Shown: positions 40,391 to 45,291 of the stretch, one piece after another
Layout of the letters: each line of letters opens with the position of its first letter
How positions within the stretch are numbered: position 1 is the first letter of the stretch
Source of the DNA: Thermoplasmata archaeon
GTDB taxonomy: Archaea > Thermoplasmatota > Thermoplasmata > Lutacidiplasmatales > UBA184
Reading direction: 5' to 3'
DNA length: 63,927 nt
Assembly: GCA_022750455.1 (NCBI GenBank)
Contig: JAKIVR010000004.1
Location: forward strand, 1-63,927
Made by a program: the position numbers and the translations under genes
The notes under the pieces: generated by a model
What the model saw: only the letters and a program-made list of their open reading frames with translations
Told to the model about the DNA's origin: nothing
Database searches by the model: none

Positions 40391-41392
40391 TCAGGCCCCC
40401 TGCTTGGAGCGCGTGGAGAGGTAGCGGATGTCGATCTTCTCGACGTTGATCACTTGGGATCGCATCGGGAGTCGGAGGCGGAGCATCCGCTTCGCCGGGC
40501 CCGGGAGCGATCCGTGGAGCACGATGCACGGGGCGCGGACCTCCCCGTAGTGGGGGAAGCCGCCGAGAGGGGTGATCGGGTCCTGCTTCGGGTCGCGCAC
40601 GACCTTCAGGACGCGCATGTTGTAGATCGTACGGCGGTGGTAGCCCATCTGGCCGGCCTGCGGGATGCGGTAGGTCACGAAGCTCGGGTTGTGCGGCCCG
40701 AGGGTTCCGATCATCCGCCGGTGCTTGGAGTTCTTGTGCGGTTGGAGCTTGACGCCCCAGCGCTTGGTGTGGCCCTGGAACCCCTTCCCCTTGGTCACTC
40801 CGATGACATCGAGGAACTCGCCCTCCTTGGCGACGGCGTCGAAGCCGATCTCCTTGCCCAGCTGCTCGAGGGCAAAGGCGCGGCGCGCCTTGGGATCCTC
40901 GCCGGAGACGCGGATCTCGAAGAGGCTCGGGGTGTCCGTAGGGACCCCTGTGAGCTGGTGCGGTTGATTGTATACTACTAGGCGGACCTCCTCTCCGGAG
41001 GCCTTGGAAAAGTTGGCGCGAGTCTCGGCGGAGCTGGGCGGATGCTCGGGGATCCGCCGCCAGAGGTGCTCATCGATCCCATCGGACCAGACCTCGGACG
41101 TCACTCGGCTTCCGTACGGTTCCTTCCGATACAGACGACAGGCCGCGACCTTGAGAGGGGGGGTTTCGAGGACGGTGACGGGCACGGAAACCTCCTGGCC
41201 GGCGGTGGTCGAACGCTTTCGATAATCGACGATGAAGGCGTGGGTCATTCCGACCTTGTAGCCCGCGAACCCTTCCAGCTGGGGGGCCTTCGGGCCGGCG
41301 GGCCAGCTGCGGATCCGGGGGATCGGCCGTACGGCCCGGGATCGGGGCGAAAATCCGAGGGATCCCCTCCGGGGACGATGCCGCCTAGCCAT
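40391..41392 (-). CDS. rpl3: 50S ribosomal protein L3 (uL3)
   Basis: PRRGSLGFSPR, GYKVGMTH, TKGKGFQG, QAGQMGYHRRT. Confidence 0.97.
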   Translation of the reverse strand: MARRHRPRRGSLGFSPRSRAVRPIPRIRSWPAGPKAPQLEGFAGYKVGMTHAFIVDYRKRSTTAGQEVSVPVTVLETPPLKVAACRLYRKEPYGSRVTSEVWSDGIDEHLWRRIPEHPPSSAETRANFSKASGEEVRLVVYNQPHQLTGVPTDTPSLFEIRVSGEDPKARRAFALEQLGKEIGFDAVAKEGEFLDVIGVTKGKGFQGHTKRWGVKLQPHKNSKHRRMIGTLGPHNPSFVTYRIPQAGQMGYHRRTIYNMRVLKVVRDPKQDPITPLGGFPHYGEVRAPCIVLHGSLPGPAKRMLRLRLPMRSQVINVEKIDIRYLSTRSKQGA

Positions 41393-41442
41393 AGCACGCT
41401 TCGCCGACCGCTATCGGCGAGGGGTCGGGGACATCGGTTCGG

Positions 41443-41449
41443 TATATAA
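41443..41449 (-). promoter_or_regulatory. Putative TATA box of the ribosomal superoperon (TTATATA)
   Basis: TTATATA on the minus strand about 50 nt upstream of the rpl3 ATG in GC-rich context. Confidence 0.65.
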
Positions 41450-41552
41450 GCGCTGGGTCGAACGAATCTGCGACCCCGATTTTCGGCGGCCGGCGCGGGT
41501 CGGAACGGTCGCGAAAACTCATCGGCTCTGAACGCGCGCGTAGAGAAAACGT

Positions 41553-41750
41553 CCCGGGGCTCGGTGCTCTCCCGTAGTCGTCCGGTATCGGCGGGACTGA
41601 TTGGCGTGTAACAGCTCGGCTGGTGTTCGTAGGTTGGACAGTCGGTCTTTGAGACGGGACCCCTACCTGACCCGGTGGTTTCGTTTTGCCCAGGACAGTA
41701 CTCCCGTTTCAGGGTGGCCTCTTGCCCGGAATACGCGTCATTCCACTACC
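41553..41750. repeat. Unclassified repeat, copy 1 (left arm)
   Basis: 41621-41641 is the reverse complement of 42810-42830 at 20/21 nt; 41553-41572 is identical to 42886-42905 in direct orientation; weaker similarity extends to about 41750. Confidence 0.85.
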
Positions 41751-41884
41751 CCGGCTCGCCTTATCTCCCGGCCACCTAATCGTAGGGCATGGCGGGTCAT
41801 CGCGGGAGCACTTCACGCGGGGCAGGGCTGTCGCCGTACGTGGCCCACTTCACGGGGCCCGGTCGCCCGCGTCGCTTGGAGCGA

Positions 41885-42652
41885 ATGATTGAGCTCGCCA
41901 AGATGTCCTGGAGCCCGGTGCTCGACATGCTCGGTAGGGAGGTGAGGTTCGACGAACTCGCGAATCGCCCATACGCCTTCCCGGATCCTCCCATGAAGCT
42001 GCCTGAACCAAAGAACGGTCGGCAGGTTGGCAACTGGCTTACCGAGGCCGAGGTTCTCAGAATCCATGACGAAATGATCTCGACGTTCAAGGGGGAGCGG
42101 GGCATCAAAGACCCCGGCGCGGTTGCCGGGATTCTTGACAGAATGCGCGAGTCTGGGGTGATGGGCCACGACCCGTTCCCGACGATCTTCGACAAGGCCG
42201 CTTACCTGATGCACTCGATCCTCTGTTACCACCCGTTCATCGACGGTCAGAAGCGGACGGGCCTTTCCTCGGCCTTTATCTTCCTCGGGATCAACGGATA
42301 CTACCTCTGGTCCCGAGACACCGTAGATGACGTCCACTTTGCCATCCAGGTCGCCGCCGGGGCGTTTGACATTCCCGACGTCGCACGGTGGATCCGTCAG
42401 CGTGTTTCGGCGCCGGATGCGACGAGGGATCCCAAGATGATCGAGCGCCTCCTCACCTCGACCGCCGAGGTCGCGAGCCGGTCCTGCACAAGCTGCCGCC
42501 ACCGGCTCCGGCTGACGCGGTATATCGTGACCTGCCCTAAGTGCGGCTCGATCTTCGCAGTCCAGCTCAATGCCGGAGTTATCCGGCCGCCCGGAAAAGC
42601 GGGCGCGACGCCGGTCGTACAGATTCAGCTCGGGCTCAAAGCAATCAGCTAG
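41885..42652 (+). CDS. Fic/Doc family protein with C-terminal Zn ribbon
   Basis: WLTEAEVLRIHD, KAAYLMHSI, HPFIDGQKRTG; CTSC...CPKC; GGAG before ATG 41885. Confidence 0.88.
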   Translation: MIELAKMSWSPVLDMLGREVRFDELANRPYAFPDPPMKLPEPKNGRQVGNWLTEAEVLRIHDEMISTFKGERGIKDPGAVAGILDRMRESGVMGHDPFPTIFDKAAYLMHSILCYHPFIDGQKRTGLSSAFIFLGINGYYLWSRDTVDDVHFAIQVAAGAFDIPDVARWIRQRVSAPDATRDPKMIERLLTSTAEVASRSCTSCRHRLRLTRYIVTCPKCGSIFAVQLNAGVIRPPGKAGATPVVQIQLGLKAIS

Positions 42653-42717
42653 TCCGACGCAGAACCCTCCTCGCGCCCGAGGCACTCGCTTGCTGCAGAG
42701 GGAATCACGGGCCTCGC

Positions 42718-42925
42718 AGTGGAACCGCACTTGGCCCTCAAGTTTTGGATCACGATGCGGGAGTTCCGTTCCAGTCCGGCCTCTCTGGGAGTTTCGTTTC
42801 AAACCCGGGCTGTCCAACCGACGAACACCAACTGATTTGTTACCTACCAATCACTTCGCCGATGCCGGACGAAATGGGACAGAACCCCGGGGCTCGGTGC
42901 TCTCCGAACTCGTCCGGTGAGCGGC
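42718..42925. repeat. Unclassified repeat, copy 2 (inverted) plus partial copy 3 (direct), forming an imperfect palindrome centred on CCCCGGGG at 42885-42892
   Basis: CTGTCCAACC.ACGAACACCA...TGTTAC...CCAATCA...CGCCGAT.CCGGACGA aligns with the reverse complement of copy 1. Confidence 0.85.
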
Positions 42926-43123
42926 CGGTTCGGAGGGTCGTAAACATTCGTCCGGTCAGAGAGACGGCCCGGCCCCTGAACTGCGAACGCGGGTCCTAGG
43001 TTTCATTCCACGTCGGCTTGGATGCGGTCGTACTTCCCTCGCCGACCCGTGCGACGGCGGCTTGCGGGTCCCGCGGCCGTTCCCGGGCACCGGACTTAAG
43101 TCGTCCCACCAGTTTTCCGGCAC

Positions 43124-43612
43124 ATGCCCGAACGGGGCCACCGGTTCTACGGGACCACTTCGGTGCGGGTCTCCCTCGTGATTGAGGCGCCGTCGCGCTA
43201 CGTGTATGATTGGTGCACGGACTACCGGAGCGACGACAGACGATTCTCGAAAAGGCGTCCCCGCCCGAGCTACCGGGTGATTCGAATTTCGCCCCGTCGC
43301 GTGGTCCGGATTCGCGCGTTGCGAGGCTCCGGTCTCGATCCCGCGCTCACGGTCGAACTGATCCGTCTCAACCCCCCGCGCTCCTGGCACCAGGACCAAT
43401 TCGACGAGACCGACCAGCAGTCCGTGGACTACCGGGTCAGCGCCGTCGGCCGCGCACGGACGCGGCTTCAGCTGTTGAGCACCGAACGCTGGCTCACTCC
43501 TGACTTTCCGACTCGCGAGGCCCTACGTGCGCAGATCGCGAGGACGTGGGCCCGATTCGCCGCCGCCCTCGAGGCGGACTATCGCGACGGACGCCCCGCC
43601 CGGGGCCGATGA
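43124..43612 (+). CDS. Hypothetical protein, possibly SRPBCC/START-like fold
   Basis: VRVSLVIEAPSRYVYDWCTDY N-terminus and C-terminal helix IARTWARFAAALE resemble SRPBCC topology. Confidence 0.55.
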   Translation: MPERGHRFYGTTSVRVSLVIEAPSRYVYDWCTDYRSDDRRFSKRRPRPSYRVIRISPRRVVRIRALRGSGLDPALTVELIRLNPPRSWHQDQFDETDQQSVDYRVSAVGRARTRLQLLSTERWLTPDFPTREALRAQIARTWARFAAALEADYRDGRPARGR

Positions 43613-44037
43613 ACTGTCCTCGACGGGACGACCGCACGTCGTCCGAGGTATGGGCACCGATCCGCCATCCCCACCGGCATGCCCCGTAAACGCCTCCCGG
43701 CGCAGTGACCAGCACCCCTGCAAAGAAACTGCGAGTCTCGCCCACCAAGCCGTACACTGAAACTAGTTCTCGGCCGAAGCCCGTCCTCGAGGCGGCGAGA
43801 AGCCGAGAAATCGCCGCCGAATCGGAGGGGGTCGGCCCGGACGACGAGGGGGCAGAACCCATCCCGGAACCCTCCCACGACTCGCGCCCCTACATCGGCC
43901 CTTCGAGACGGGTAACCAAGACGAAGCGCACAGCGTCCGCGGACAGTGCCGACGTCGCGCGCCCAGATCGGGGCCCGCGGTCGCTCCAGAACGGTTAATC
44001 AATCTCGCGTATCCCTGGCGCAGGACGGATTCCGCGA

Positions 44038-45291
44038 GTGACCGAAACTGGGTCCACCTTGTCCGTGCAACTCGCCGACGTACGGGAGGCGGCGGAGAGG
44101 CTCCGGGGAATCGCGCTCCGCACTCCCCTGATCCCGGCTCCCCACTTCCCGGGCCTCCCCGAGTCGGGGCTGTACCTCAAGCTCGAATGCTTCCAGCGTA
44201 CCGGCTCGTTCAAACTTCGCGGGGCCGCGAACCGAATCTCCCATCTGACCGAGGCGGAGTCGAAGGTCGGAGTGATCACCGCCTCCGCGGGAAACCATTC
44301 CCAAGGGGTCGCCTGGGCGGCGCGCGCCCGCGGTCTCCCCGCGACGATCGTCATGGCCGAGACCGCCTCGCCGCTCAAGGTGAGCGCGACCCGCGCGTTG
44401 GGAGCCCGCGTCATCCTGTTCGGAGCGGATTATGATGAAGCCCACGACGAGGCCGTCCGTCGGGCCAAGGAGGAGGGTCTCACGTACATCCCGCCGTTCG
44501 ACGATTCCGCGGTCATCGCCGGCCAAGGCACGGTCGGGCTCGAGATCGCCGAGGACCTCCCCGGCGTCCGACGCGTGATCGCCGGCGTCGGGGGCGGAGG
44601 TCTTCTCTCGGGGATTGCCGTCGCCATCCGCGGCCTGTGCGGACCCGGGGTGGAGATCGTCGGGGTTCAGCCCGAAGGCTCCGACACGTTCCGCGCGTCC
44701 CTCCGGGAAGGTCGGGTCGTCGTCGGGAGTCGTCCCAAGACCTTTGCCGATGGACTGGCGACGAGGCACGTCGGCGACCTCAACCTCCAGATCCTGCGCG
44801 CGCTGGGAGCGCGCGCGGCGGTCGTCGACGACCGCACCATCGCCCGCGCGTCGTTCTTACTCCTCGAACACGCGAAGCTCCTCGTCGAAGGCGCGGGCGC
44901 CACGCCCCTCGCCGCTTTGCTCGCCGATCCGAAGCTCGCCGACGACGGCCCCACGGTCCTCGTGATCAGCGGAGGCAACCTCGACCCGTTCCTCCTCGAC
45001 CGGGTGCTGTGGATCGGTCTGACCGCGGAAGGTCGCCTCTTGCGGATCCGCGCCCCGTTGAAGGACGCCCCGGGACGGCTCGCCGAGTTCCTCGCCACCG
45101 CCGGGAGCGCCGCGGCCAACGTCCGACACGTGGTGCATGACCGGGAGACGTCCTCGGGCAATCCCGGAGAGGTGGAGGTCGAGCTCGAGCTCGAGGTCCG
45201 CGACCGAGCCCACGCGGACGAGGTCCTGAAGACGTATCTCGCCAAGGGGTGGGCCGTGCGCCGGATCGACGAGCTGTCGCCGGCCGAATGA
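44038..45291 (+). CDS. ilvA: Threonine ammonia-lyase with C-terminal ACT domain
   Basis: LKLECFQRTGSFKLRGA (PLP Lys), ASAGNHSQG, IAGQGT, VGGGGL, SGGN; DAPGRL ACT domain. Confidence 0.93.
   Translation: MTETGSTLSVQLADVREAAERLRGIALRTPLIPAPHFPGLPESGLYLKLECFQRTGSFKLRGAANRISHLTEAESKVGVITASAGNHSQGVAWAARARGLPATIVMAETASPLKVSATRALGARVILFGADYDEAHDEAVRRAKEEGLTYIPPFDDSAVIAGQGTVGLEIAEDLPGVRRVIAGVGGGGLLSGIAVAIRGLCGPGVEIVGVQPEGSDTFRASLREGRVVVGSRPKTFADGLATRHVGDLNLQILRALGARAAVVDDRTIARASFLLLEHAKLLVEGAGATPLAALLADPKLADDGPTVLVISGGNLDPFLLDRVLWIGLTAEGRLLRIRAPLKDAPGRLAEFLATAGSAAANVRHVVHDRETSSGNPGEVEVELELEVRDRAHADEVLKTYLAKGWAVRRIDELSPAE

What the first reader, a model, noticed from the sequence alone, without database searches (positions are those of the whole stretch)
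41553..42925. Fic/Doc gene bracketed by an unrecognised inverted-plus-direct repeat system with no recombinase nearby
Seen: a diverged arm of ~100 nt (traceable to ~200 nt) lies on each side of the Fic gene in inverted orientation. 41621-41641 versus 42810-42830 match 20/21, with further blocks TGTTAC, CCAATCA and CGCCGAT.CCGGACGA. Directly abutting the right arm is a third, direct copy of the left arm's start (20-nt perfect repeat 41553-41572 = 42886-42905, then TCGTCCGGT), so the right side is an imperfect palindrome centred on CCCCGGGG. The arms contain GTTGGAC (41633) and GTCCAAC (42812), which fit the integron core consensus GTTRRRY/RYYYAAC in the order expected around a cassette. Established: toxin genes such as Doc are common cassette and transposon cargo. 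Inference: these are recombination sites or ends of an unclassified mobile element (attC-like hairpin or long-TIR non-autonomous transposon) acting in trans, since no integrase or transposase gene lies next to them. The long internal homology and incomplete outer arms are atypical for a classical attC. The element sits at the head of the ribosomal superoperon.
Basis: partly seen in the sequence, partly recalled or inferred. Interest (0 to 1): 0.78.

Follow-up and report, generated by a model that had tools for sequence, protein, structure and literature searches.

The report
Repeat scars around inserted Fic gene
The repeats are real and mark the edges of a toxin-like Fic/Doc gene that was inserted, in this soil archaeon only, between the ribosomal-protein operon and its neighbour gene; they look like the decayed joints of an old insertion, not an integron site or a working switch.

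Summary
Arms 41563-41656 and 42795-42886 are inverted copies (72/92 identical, blastn E 6e-13). 41553-41595 is repeated directly at 42886-42928 (38/44, first 20 perfect). Similarity beyond about 94 nt is not significant.

Four related Thermoplasmata lineages have rpl3 facing the PALP (threonine-dehydratase-like) gene across only 160-225 nt. Here the spacer is 2,645 nt. Homology with relatives stops at 41552, exactly where the repeat begins, and resumes near 43970. So about 2.4 kb was inserted: the Fic module and also the neighbouring 162-aa gene.

The layout is B|O-P'...Fic...P|O-B', with P inverted relative to O+P'. A small circle with a quasi-palindromic attachment site would leave this after recombining through a ~20-nt core. 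I favour a decayed, recombinase-less insertion relic (confidence 0.5).

The integron reading fails: GTTRRRY occurs at chance frequency, each arm has a single core motif, and there is no hairpin signal. No other secure copy was found in the window, in relatives' loci or in public collections. Twelve soil runs show only this arrangement, at low depth.

Interest is moderate.

The parts
41530..41552 (.). Last native sequence on the rpl3 side. It holds the conserved motif GAACGCGCGCGTAGAG (then AAAACGT). The insert begins at 41553.
   Evidence: The motif lies 128-137 nt from the rpl3 start codon in L031, L034, L035, L039 and the window. blastn of 41525-41545 against L034 gives 95%.
41553..43969 (.). 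Lineage-specific insert of about 2.4 kb between the rpl3 and PALP promoters. It holds the Fic module and the 162-aa module.
   Evidence: The rpl3-PALP spacer is 160-225 nt in four related lineages and 2,645 nt here. PALP-side similarity (GGCCCGCGG, TTAAT box) resumes at about 43970. The right limit is approximate.
41553..41595 (+). Left direct repeat (O). Its first 20 nt, CCCGGGGCTCGGTGCTCTCC, are perfect, followed by TCGTCCGGT. It is also the outer part of the left arm.
   Evidence: 38/44 identical to 42886-42928, E 2e-7.
41563..41656 (+). Left inverted arm (A1 = O + P').
   Evidence: 72/92 identical to the reverse complement of 42795-42886.
41761..41766 (+). TATA-like box TTATCT, 28 nt before the Fic ATG. 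This suggests a leaderless transcript from a promoter inside the element.
   Evidence: Read from the sequence. Inference only; no RNA data.
41789..42652 (+). Fic/Doc-family gene with a C-terminal CxxC...CxxC zinc ribbon; the cargo.
   Evidence: Pfam PF02661 E 4e-10, TIGR01550 DOC_P1 E 8e-16, phrog_577 Doc-like toxin E 3e-27. There are 54 homologues in Thermoplasmata metagenomes, up to 81% identical and full length.
42795..42886 (-). Right inverted arm (A2 = P). On the + strand it carries a T-rich tract, 42790-42800, that could terminate Fic transcription.
42865..42917 (.). Junction quasi-palindrome CCGGACGA...CCCCGGGG...TCGTCCGG, where the right arm abuts the right direct repeat.
   Evidence: I4: 22-nt arms, 77% complementary. 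The DNA fold is not better than shuffles (z -0.92).
42886..42928 (+). Right direct repeat (O), followed by unrelated sequence (B').
43071..43700 (+). Second inserted module: a 162-aa gene (43124-43612) with no family match, with its own CTTAAG box at 43095. It is a sharply bounded block found in other contexts elsewhere.
   Evidence: 85-88% nt identity to L016, L017-20 and L021-22, starting at 43071/2 in every case. The neighbours differ in each.
43673..43789 (+). R2 repeat, about 100-120 nt, with terminal inverted repeats GGCTTTGCCC/GGGCAAAGCC. It accompanies the 162-aa gene.
   Evidence: nhmmer E 1e-27. It flanks the gene on both sides in direct orientation in L016 and L017-20.
43837..43860 (+). 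Marginal extra fragment resembling the outer end of the right arm (CCGGACGA-N8/9-CAGAACCC).
   Evidence: The pattern occurs twice in the window with 0 expected, but it was defined after the fact. The alignment score is reached by 11 of 2000 local shuffles and by 12 of 1331 window tiles.
58319..58350 (+). Marginal extra fragment resembling arm positions 41571-41604 (TCGTCCGG...TGATTGG). It lies about 65 nt left of an IS701-like element.
   Evidence: The pattern occurs 3 times with 0 expected, again defined after the fact. Unbiased profile search gives E 0.1-0.2; blastn gives E 1.9. Not established.

Best explanation
The repeats are the decayed joints left by the insertion of a small, recombinase-less DNA element of about 1.33 kb (41553-42885). 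Its only gene is a Fic/Doc-zinc-ribbon gene with its own promoter.

The layout reads B | O-P' ... Fic ... P | O-B':
- B is native rpl3-side DNA.
- O is the ~44-nt direct repeat with a 20-nt perfect core.
- P (right arm) is an inverted copy of O+P' (left arm).
- B' is unrelated sequence.

This is the product expected if a circular element with a long quasi-palindromic attachment site (arm|arm, centred on CCCCGGGG) recombined through the O core with a similar short sequence in the chromosome. Recombination would split the palindrome: one half goes to the left end, and the other stays next to the regenerated core.

The recombinase was supplied in trans or has since been lost. The arms are now 78% alike and the direct repeats 86%, and the arrangement is the same in all samples. 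The element is therefore most likely immobile today. The Fic gene itself remains intact.

Shown: the repeats, the insertion, the coincidence of the left boundary, and the mosaic similarity.
Inferred: the circular intermediate, site-specific recombination, and the order of events relative to the neighbouring 162-aa module.
For: - Empty site: rpl3 and PALP are divergent neighbours 160-225 nt apart in L031-33, L034, L035 and L039-42 (L3 68-78% identical). Downstream gene order is the same as in the window.
- Boundary: the conserved motif GAACGCGCGCGTAGAG lies 128-137 nt from the rpl3 ATG in all five lineages. In the window it ends 7 nt before 41553, the first base of the repeat.
- Mosaic similarity: the left arm's outer 44 nt match the right direct repeat (86%, 20 perfect). 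Its inner 60 nt match only the right arm (about 78%). The sequence after the right direct repeat matches neither (224 and 273 of 1000 shuffles equal the scores).
- Foreign character: G+C is 0.619 for the element against 0.689 on both sides.
- Fic homologues (72-78% nt) lie in at least six unrelated contexts, two of them beside mobile or defence genes.
- The adjacent 162-aa gene is also a relocating block. This suggests that single-gene modules move in this clade.
- The motif TCGTCCGG occurs 5 times within the 2.4-kb insert, out of 17 in 64 kb. Two copies are placed symmetrically about the CCCCGGGG centre. This is what recombinase-binding sites would look like.
Against: - It is a single locus. 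No second secure copy of the arms was found in the 64-kb window (best E 0.1-0.2).
- None was found in 286 kb of relatives' loci.
- Pattern scans of genome contigs, metagenome contigs and viral contigs gave only chance hits in unrelated bacteria.
- None was found in plasmid or phage collections, nor in the Logan contigs of four runs at 80% likeness or more.
- No integrase was recognised in the window.
- B' is not native DNA but leads into another inserted module. The att model therefore needs two successive events.
- No Fic homologue in relatives carries such arms.
- No excision, circle or inversion junction was seen in 12 runs, though depth was only 2-6x.
- Repair-associated duplication could produce the same repeats.
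Confidence: 0.5

Rival explanations
1. One-off rearrangement scar with no dedicated mobile element. Foreign DNA carrying Fic entered by illegitimate recombination. The inverted and direct copies then arose by replication template switching or fold-back repair at the short palindrome CCCCGGGG (microhomology-mediated break-induced replication). They have since decayed.
For: - The right arm and right direct repeat meet with no spacer exactly at a short perfect palindrome, 42885-42892. This is typical of fold-back junctions.
- The copies are confined to this locus.
- No recombinase was found.
- The identities of the two repeat pairs (78% and 86%) are compatible with one age.
Against: - It needs at least three template switches to give an inverted 94-nt copy plus a 44-nt direct copy that then continues into unrelated sequence.
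- It does not explain why the repeat starts within 1-3 nt of the break in synteny.
- It does not explain the symmetric TCGTCCGG motifs or the marginal fragments at 43837 and 58319.
Confidence: 0.27
2. The arms have a present-day cis function for the toxin-like gene. They could be paired binding sites for a regulator or insulator. Alternatively they could be complementary 5' and 3' untranslated segments that pair in the Fic transcript and control its processing or translation.
For: - The most conserved block is 20/21 identical within arms that are otherwise 78% alike. This hints at selective constraint.
- The arms are placed almost symmetrically, 133 nt before the start codon and 143 nt after the stop.
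- T-rich terminator-like tracts lie in both arm regions.
Against: - RNA folds of either arm are no better than shuffles (z +0.63 and -0.74).
- Of 20 mismatches between the arms, 10 are transversions that would break pairs, and there is no strong G-U bias.
- A TATA-like box 28 nt before the ATG predicts a leaderless mRNA that excludes the left arm.
- None of eight Fic homologue loci has such arms, so the gene does not need them.
- No Rfam match and no RNA runs.
Confidence: 0.1
3. An active invertible or excisable segment (phase-variation-like switch), flipped or removed by a recombinase encoded elsewhere.
For: Inverted repeats with a near-perfect 21-nt block flank a complete gene. Direct repeats could also support excision.
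Against: - Only the window arrangement is seen in contigs from 12 independent soil runs. The left junction appears in X1 and the right junction in X2, X3, X7 and X10. No joints are reported, although depth is low.
- The gene carries its own promoter, so inversion would change nothing obvious.
- There is no adjacent recombinase, unlike known switches.
- The arms are too diverged for homologous flipping.
Confidence: 0.05
4. Integron-type gene cassette, with the arms acting as attC sites recombined by an IntI-like integrase.
For: GTTGGAC and GTCCAAC fit GTTRRRY/RYYYAAC and lie on the expected sides of the gene. Toxin genes are common cassette cargo (general knowledge).
Against: - GTTRRRY occurs 45 times in the window against 51 expected.
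- The two words are copies of each other by arm homology. They are not the R''/R' pair of a single site.
- There is no GTTRRRY on the + strand between 42819 and 43473.
- The sites are inverted, not co-oriented.
- The junction hairpin is not better than shuffles.
- No integrase was found.
Confidence: 0.02

Closest known systems
Integrated elements bounded by attL/attR direct repeats (archaeal and bacterial integrative elements), including recombinase-less ones that use a host enzyme, such as the Xer-dependent IMEX elements of bacteria (from my own knowledge)
   Same: - Direct repeats with a perfect core lie at both joints.
- The left joint coincides with the break in synteny.
- The element carries no recombinase gene.
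- The inferred attachment site has dyad symmetry around the core, as attP sites commonly do.
- The cargo is a toxin-like gene.
   Different: - The target is not a tRNA gene or a dif site. It is a promoter spacer beside a conserved palindrome.
- The symmetric arms are unusually long, about 94 nt each.
- The element is only 1.33 kb.
- No recombinase, circle or second copy was found.
- The right flank is another inserted module, not native DNA.
Mobile insertion cassettes (MICs) and cargo-carrying MITE-like elements: IS-type inverted repeats around passenger genes, with no transposase (e.g. PMC4337579, PMC5444012)
   Same: Inverted repeats bracket a single passenger gene. There is no transposase, so mobility would need a helper in trans.
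   Different: - Known MICs have short (15-40 bp) inverted repeats identical to those of a resident IS, and a short target-site duplication outside both repeats.
- Here the arms are about 94 nt.
- They are unrelated to the only IS in the window.
- The direct repeat is 44 nt and overlaps the left arm.
Casposons and mini-casposons of archaea, including the Thermoplasmatota member Aciduliprofundum boonei (PMC5137440, PMC10359463)
   Same: Long terminal inverted repeats are allowed. Insertion is site-preferring, next to a palindromic sequence. The host phylum is the same.
   Different: - Casposons give a 14-15 bp target-site duplication outside both repeats (PMC5137440).
- They encode Cas1 and PolB.
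- Neither was seen here, and the direct repeat geometry differs.
Integron attC sites
   Same: Imperfect palindromy, and 7-nt words that fit the core consensus.
   Different: See the membership test. The defining architecture, the orientation, the hairpin signal and the integrase are all lacking.

Membership tests
Integron gene cassette / attC | One 55-141 nt site holding both R'' (RYYYAAC) and R' (GTTRRRY) as an imperfect palindrome at the 3' end of the cassette | tested here: not met
   Each arm has one core word, and the two are 1.2 kb apart. After GTCCAAC at 42812 the next + strand GTTRRRY is at 43474. The word is at chance frequency (45 against 51 expected).
Integron gene cassette / attC | Stable single-strand hairpin of the site | tested here: not met
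   ssDNA fold of 42855-42928 gives -16.1 kcal/mol, z -0.92, and 33 of 200 shuffles fold as well. The attC covariance model of IntegronFinder was not available.
Integron gene cassette / attC | Co-oriented sites in an array next to intI/attI | tested here: not met
   The arms are inverted. No integrase was recognised in the window. The whole genome could not be searched.
IS-derived non-autonomous element (MITE / mobile insertion cassette) | Terminal inverted repeats at both ends | tested here: met
   41563-41656 against 42795-42886: 72/92 identical, E 6e-13.
IS-derived non-autonomous element (MITE / mobile insertion cassette) | Short target-site duplication immediately outside both repeats | tested here: not met
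   Left flank ...AAAACGT and right flank show no short duplication. The only direct repeat is 44 nt; it overlaps the left arm and lies outside only the right arm.
IS-derived non-autonomous element (MITE / mobile insertion cassette) | Ends shared with an autonomous IS, and multiple copies in the genome | tested here: inconclusive
   The IS701-like element in the window has unrelated ends. No secure further copy was found in the window, relatives' loci or public scans.
Integrative element with attL/attR | Direct repeats with an identical core at both joints | tested here: met
   41553-41595 matches 42886-42928 at 38/44, with the first 20 perfect.
Integrative element with attL/attR | Joints coincide with the limits of an insertion relative to an empty site in relatives | tested here: inconclusive
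   The left joint does: homology ends at 41552. The right joint is followed by a second inserted module, so native DNA resumes only near 43970.
Integrative element with attL/attR | Cognate integrase (in the element or elsewhere), and a detectable circular or empty form | tested here: not met
   No integrase in the window. No joints in 12 runs at 2-6x depth. The genome-wide search was not possible.
Invertible DNA switch | Both orientations present in a population | tested here: not met
   Only one orientation appears in contigs of 12 runs from at least 6 studies. Power is low.
Casposon-derived element | 14-15 bp target-site duplication outside the inverted repeats, and Cas1/PolB in the family | tested here: not met
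   No such duplication. No Cas1-like ORF was noted in the window. The feature definition comes from PMC5137440.
Fic/Doc toxin family (the cargo) | Fic domain with the HxFx(D/N)(A/G)NKR-type motif | tested here: met
   PF02661 E 4e-10, TIGR01550 E 8e-16. The motif reads HPFIDGQKR, with Q in place of N.

The most novel reading that the evidence does not exclude
Soil Lutacidiplasmatales-like Thermoplasmata may have an unrecognised way of moving single, self-promoted genes between intergenic sites. Each gene would be bracketed by its own ~100-nt repeats: the inverted A arms plus core for Fic, and the direct R2 repeats for the 162-aa gene. The rpl3/PALP promoter spacer would have captured two such cassettes in series. 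The recombinase would be unknown and encoded elsewhere. It might recognise the TCGTCCGG motifs arranged around the CCCCGGGG core.
Probability: 0.15. Interest if true: 0.8.

Novelty: new variant of a known kind. Interest (0 to 1): 0.4.

Why it matters
If the att-type reading is right, this is a clean example of how a solitary Doc-like toxin gene entered an archaeal chromosome. It landed at a sensitive place, 160 nt upstream of the first gene of the ribosomal-protein operon, without disturbing either flanking promoter.

With the relocating 162-aa/R2 block next door, it hints that uncultured soil Thermoplasmata exchange single-gene modules through short repeat-bounded sites. No recombinase is known for this. 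That would bear on how defence and toxin genes spread in archaea.

As it stands, this is one decayed locus with no demonstrated family or activity. It is mainly a lead for a genome-wide and clade-wide repeat search.

Tried and rejected
2. Pattern TCGTCCGGNNTCNGCGN{0,4}TGATTGG in genome contigs, metagenome contigs and viral contigs. This gave 10, 8 and 0 hits. All were in unrelated bacteria or showed no further similarity, so they are chance. Even the window's own locus is absent from those collections, so the negative result is weak.
3. Structured RNA: Rfam at gathering and at permissive thresholds gave nothing relevant. An RsmV hit at 24 bits against a 100-bit cut-off lies inside the Fic ORF and is noise. 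Folds were not better than shuffles.
4. Decayed coding sequence. tblastx of the arms against the window and 286 kb of relatives found only arm against arm. The 95-aa ORF across the left arm has no homologue among 1.84 billion representatives. By hand count on the alignment, read in the frame of the 95-aa ORF that starts at 41601, about 4 of 13 differing codons are synonymous, roughly what random change would give; this frame reading was not scripted.
5. A third core copy at the PALP-side boundary (43969-43986): not significant, since 677 of 1000 shuffles reach the score.
6. Homology between the arms and the R2 repeat: none (nhmmer).
7. Arms around Fic homologues in relatives: none in L001-L005 or L036-L038. 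Homology between homologues is confined to the ORF.
8. Fic on viral contigs: none. Arms in plasmids or phages: none.
9. Integrase beside tRNA-Val at the head of the low-GC region 55.6-63.9 kb: the 408-aa, 345-aa and 927-aa ORFs have no hits in Pfam, PHROGs or NCBIfam.
10. RNA evidence: no RNA run holds the element. One metatranscriptome contig ends at 41407 and covers only rpl3.
Full report
**1. What is in the sequence**

The region between rpl3 (40391-41392, minus strand; Ribosomal_L3 E 2e-76) and a PALP-family gene (44038-45291, plus strand) is 2,645 nt long. It holds two plus-strand ORFs.
- A Fic/Doc-family protein with a C-terminal zinc ribbon, at 41789-42652. Support: PF02661 E 4e-10, TIGR01550 DOC_P1 E 8e-16, phrog_577 'Doc-like toxin' E 3e-27.
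- A 162-aa protein with no family match, at 43124-43612.

- blastn of each flank against the whole window finds the inverted pair 41563-41656 / 42795-42886 (94 nt, 76.6%, E 6e-13).
- It also finds the direct pair 41553-41595 / 42886-42928 (44 nt, 86%, E 2e-7).
- A gapped alignment of the arms gives 72/92 identical, and no shuffle reaches that score.

Two parts of the description do not hold.
- Beyond 41656/42795 the arms are no more alike than shuffled sequence: 1607 of 2000 shuffles equal the score. The arms are therefore about 94 nt, not 200.
- The 'third copy' is only the 44-nt direct repeat. The sequence that follows it (42929-43075) is not similar to the interior of either arm.

**2. The region is an insertion, and the repeat starts at its edge**

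The closest L3 proteins in the 5.8-billion-protein collection are only 68-78% identical.

In four such lineages rpl3 is the divergent neighbour of the PALP gene. These are L031-33, L034, L035 and the more distant L039-42. The spacer is 160, 211, 225 and 187 nt. Behind PALP the gene order is DUF2203, then CarboxypepD_reg, as in the window.

The compact spacer is therefore ancestral, and the window carries a lineage-specific insertion.

The rpl3-side half of the spacer is alignable. The TATA box (window 41443) and a motif GAACGCGCGCGTAGAG lie at the same distance from the rpl3 start codon (128-137 nt) in all five lineages. In the window this motif is at 41530-41545. Similarity to relatives ends with ...AAAACGT at 41552. 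The next base, 41553, is the first base of the repeat.

On the other side, similarity to the PALP-proximal spacer (GGCCCGCGG, then the TTAAT box) resumes near 43970. About 2.4 kb is inserted.

G+C is 0.619 for 41553-42885, against 0.689 in the ribosomal operon and 0.688 in PALP/DUF2203.

**3. The neighbour gene is also inserted**

That is not what relatives show.

The 162-aa gene has hundreds of homologues at 75-89% identity in soil Thermoplasmata. In three further genomes it lies in three other contexts:
- after a DEAD_2 helicase;
- after an ion-channel gene and before an IS110 transposase;
- after an alpha/beta hydrolase.

DNA similarity to the window starts at 43071/43072 in every case and ends at 43674-43783.

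The block is 85-88% identical in DNA, including 81-83% in its 52-nt promoter segment. The ribosomal operon is only 73-76% identical to its nearest available relatives.

In two of these genomes the block is flanked on both sides by direct copies of a 100-120-nt repeat, which I call R2. The window keeps one R2 copy, at 43673-43789.

So the spacer has taken up two separate single-gene modules.

**4. The Fic gene elsewhere**

Fic homologues (up to 81% amino-acid identity, full length) occur in Thermoplasmata metagenomes. Eight loci, representing six contexts, were read:
- beside a large P-loop protein (sequence read, no family hit) and a DUF488 gene;
- beside VWA and S17e genes;
- beside a restriction-modification gene and a transposase;
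- between a TPR gene and an HD-domain-like gene (both named from the sequences);
- two other contexts.

None has flanking inverted repeats. None shows DNA similarity to the arms. Similarity among the homologues is confined to the ORF. The arms are therefore specific to this locus, not a constant companion of the gene.

**5. What the arms are not**

*Not an integron site.*
- GTTRRRY occurs 45 times in the window against 51 expected.
- The two instances in the arms are copies of each other, 1.2 kb apart and inverted.
- No second core word follows within an attC length.
- The junction palindrome folds no better than shuffles (z -0.92).

*Not a known RNA.* There is no Rfam hit. Folds of the arms are not better than shuffles. 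Half of the 20 mismatches between the arms are transversions that would break a stem.

*Not decayed coding sequence*, as far as can be tested.

*Not the ends of the only IS in the window.* That element is IS701-like, at 58417-59883, with ends CTAGTTCTACTGTGTCA.

*No match* in plasmid, phage or viral collections.

**6. Most likely mechanism**

The similarity is mosaic.
- The left arm's outer 44 nt resemble the right direct repeat (86%, first 20 perfect).
- Its inner 60 nt resemble only the right arm.
- What follows the right direct repeat resembles neither.

Written as B | O-P' ... Fic ... P | O-B', with P inverted relative to O+P', this is what results when a circular element recombines through the O core with a short similar chromosomal sequence. 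The element's attachment site would be a long quasi-palindrome (P-O-P', centre CCCCGGGG). The palindrome is split: one half now starts the element at the break in synteny, and the other half still abuts a core at the right joint.

The 8-mer TCGTCCGG lies at about the same distance on either side of the centre at the right joint (42865-42872 and 42910-42917). It recurs at 41578, 42948 and 43837. That is five of the 17 copies in 64 kb. This is how recombinase-binding sites would be arranged, but that is inference.

The element (1,333 nt) has no room for a recombinase, and none was recognised in the window. The enzyme acted in trans or was lost.

The arms (78%) and the direct repeats (86%) have diverged. 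The insertion is therefore probably old, if the copies were identical when they formed.

**7. Population data**

Contigs from 12 soil or rhizosphere runs of at least six studies match the window exactly where they overlap it.
- The left joint is seen in X1 (41251-41706).
- The right joint is seen in X2, X3, X7 and X10.
- No joints or alternative forms are reported.

Depth is 2-6x and the contigs are short. This shows that the arrangement is the common one, not that variants are absent. No RNA run holds the element.

**8. Rivals**

- A repair-associated origin (template switching at the CCCCGGGG palindrome) would also give a spacer-less inverted junction and locus-restricted copies. It needs several switches and does not predict the boundary coincidence. 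I give it 0.27.
- A regulatory role for the arms is weakened by their absence around every homologue and by the internal promoter (0.10).
- An active switch (0.05) and an integron cassette (0.02) are contradicted by the tests above.

**9. Extra copies**

Two short fragments resemble parts of the arm.
Patterns built after seeing it have zero chance expectation. Unbiased searches give E 0.1-0.2.
- 43837-43860 is similar: the after-the-fact pattern has zero expectation, and the alignment score is reached by about 1% of window tiles.

I treat both as unproven.

**10. Limits**

The key test, copy number in the whole assembly and in sister genomes, could not be run.
- The public pattern scans do not even contain the window's own locus, so their silence is weak evidence.
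The order is described in PMC9287336.

**11. Verdict**

This is a real, statistically secure repeat system that marks an old single-gene insertion. It is best read as the decayed attL/attR-like joints of a small non-autonomous element with an unusually long palindromic site. It belongs to no known family by sequence, fails the integron tests, and fits IS-type elements only in having inverted ends. Interest is moderate. It would rise sharply if the same ends were found around other cargo.

Noticed in passing
window 43071-43789; L016 4820-5647; L017 4820-5647; L021 2570-3290: The 162-aa gene is a sharply bounded block that is 85-88% identical in DNA across genomes whose ribosomal operons are only 73-76% identical to the window. 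It sits in at least four different contexts. It is flanked by direct copies of a 100-120-nt repeat, R2: GGCTTTGCCCATAAACG...CACAGAAAC x3...GTTCTCGGGCAAAGCC, with 10-13-bp terminal inverted repeats. It looks like a mobile single-gene cassette of unknown mechanism.
   Followed up: partly
window 41530-41545 and the same place in L031, L034, L035, L039: The (near-)palindromic motif GAACGCGCGCGT(TC/AG) is conserved at 128-137 nt upstream of the rpl3 start codon in five Thermoplasmata lineages. It is a candidate operator shared by the divergent rpl3 and PALP promoters. In the window the insertion has separated it from PALP by 2.4 kb.
   Followed up: partly
window 58417-59883: IS701-like insertion sequence. 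It has a 431-aa DDE_5 transposase (E 2e-84) and perfect 17-nt terminal inverted repeats CTAGTTCTACTGTGTCA. It is preceded by an AT-rich 40-nt stretch.
   Followed up: partly
window 55571-63927: G+C falls from about 0.70 to 0.54-0.64 directly after tRNA-Val (55497-55570) and stays low to the end of the contig. The large ORFs there (408, 345 and more than 927 aa) have no hits in Pfam, PHROGs or NCBIfam. This may be an integrated element or genomic island with no recognisable integrase.
   Followed up: partly
L017 5824-6951 and L019 2069-3196: In one relative an IS110-family transposase gene lies directly after the downstream R2 repeat of the 162-aa module. IS110/IS1111 elements often target palindromic repeats, so R2 may be such a target.
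   Followed up: no
L001 1298-3429: One Fic homologue lies next to a 634-aa protein with a P-loop motif (GEEGSGKT) and no Pfam family, preceded by a 76-aa ORF. This resembles a plasmid or virus replication module, so that Fic copy may sit in an integrated element.
   Followed up: no
window 41300-41407: A soil metatranscriptome contig (run X11) ends at 41407, about 36 nt downstream (in the rpl3 direction) of the TATA box at 41443-41449. This fits an rpl3 transcript start with a leader of about 15 nt.
   Followed up: no
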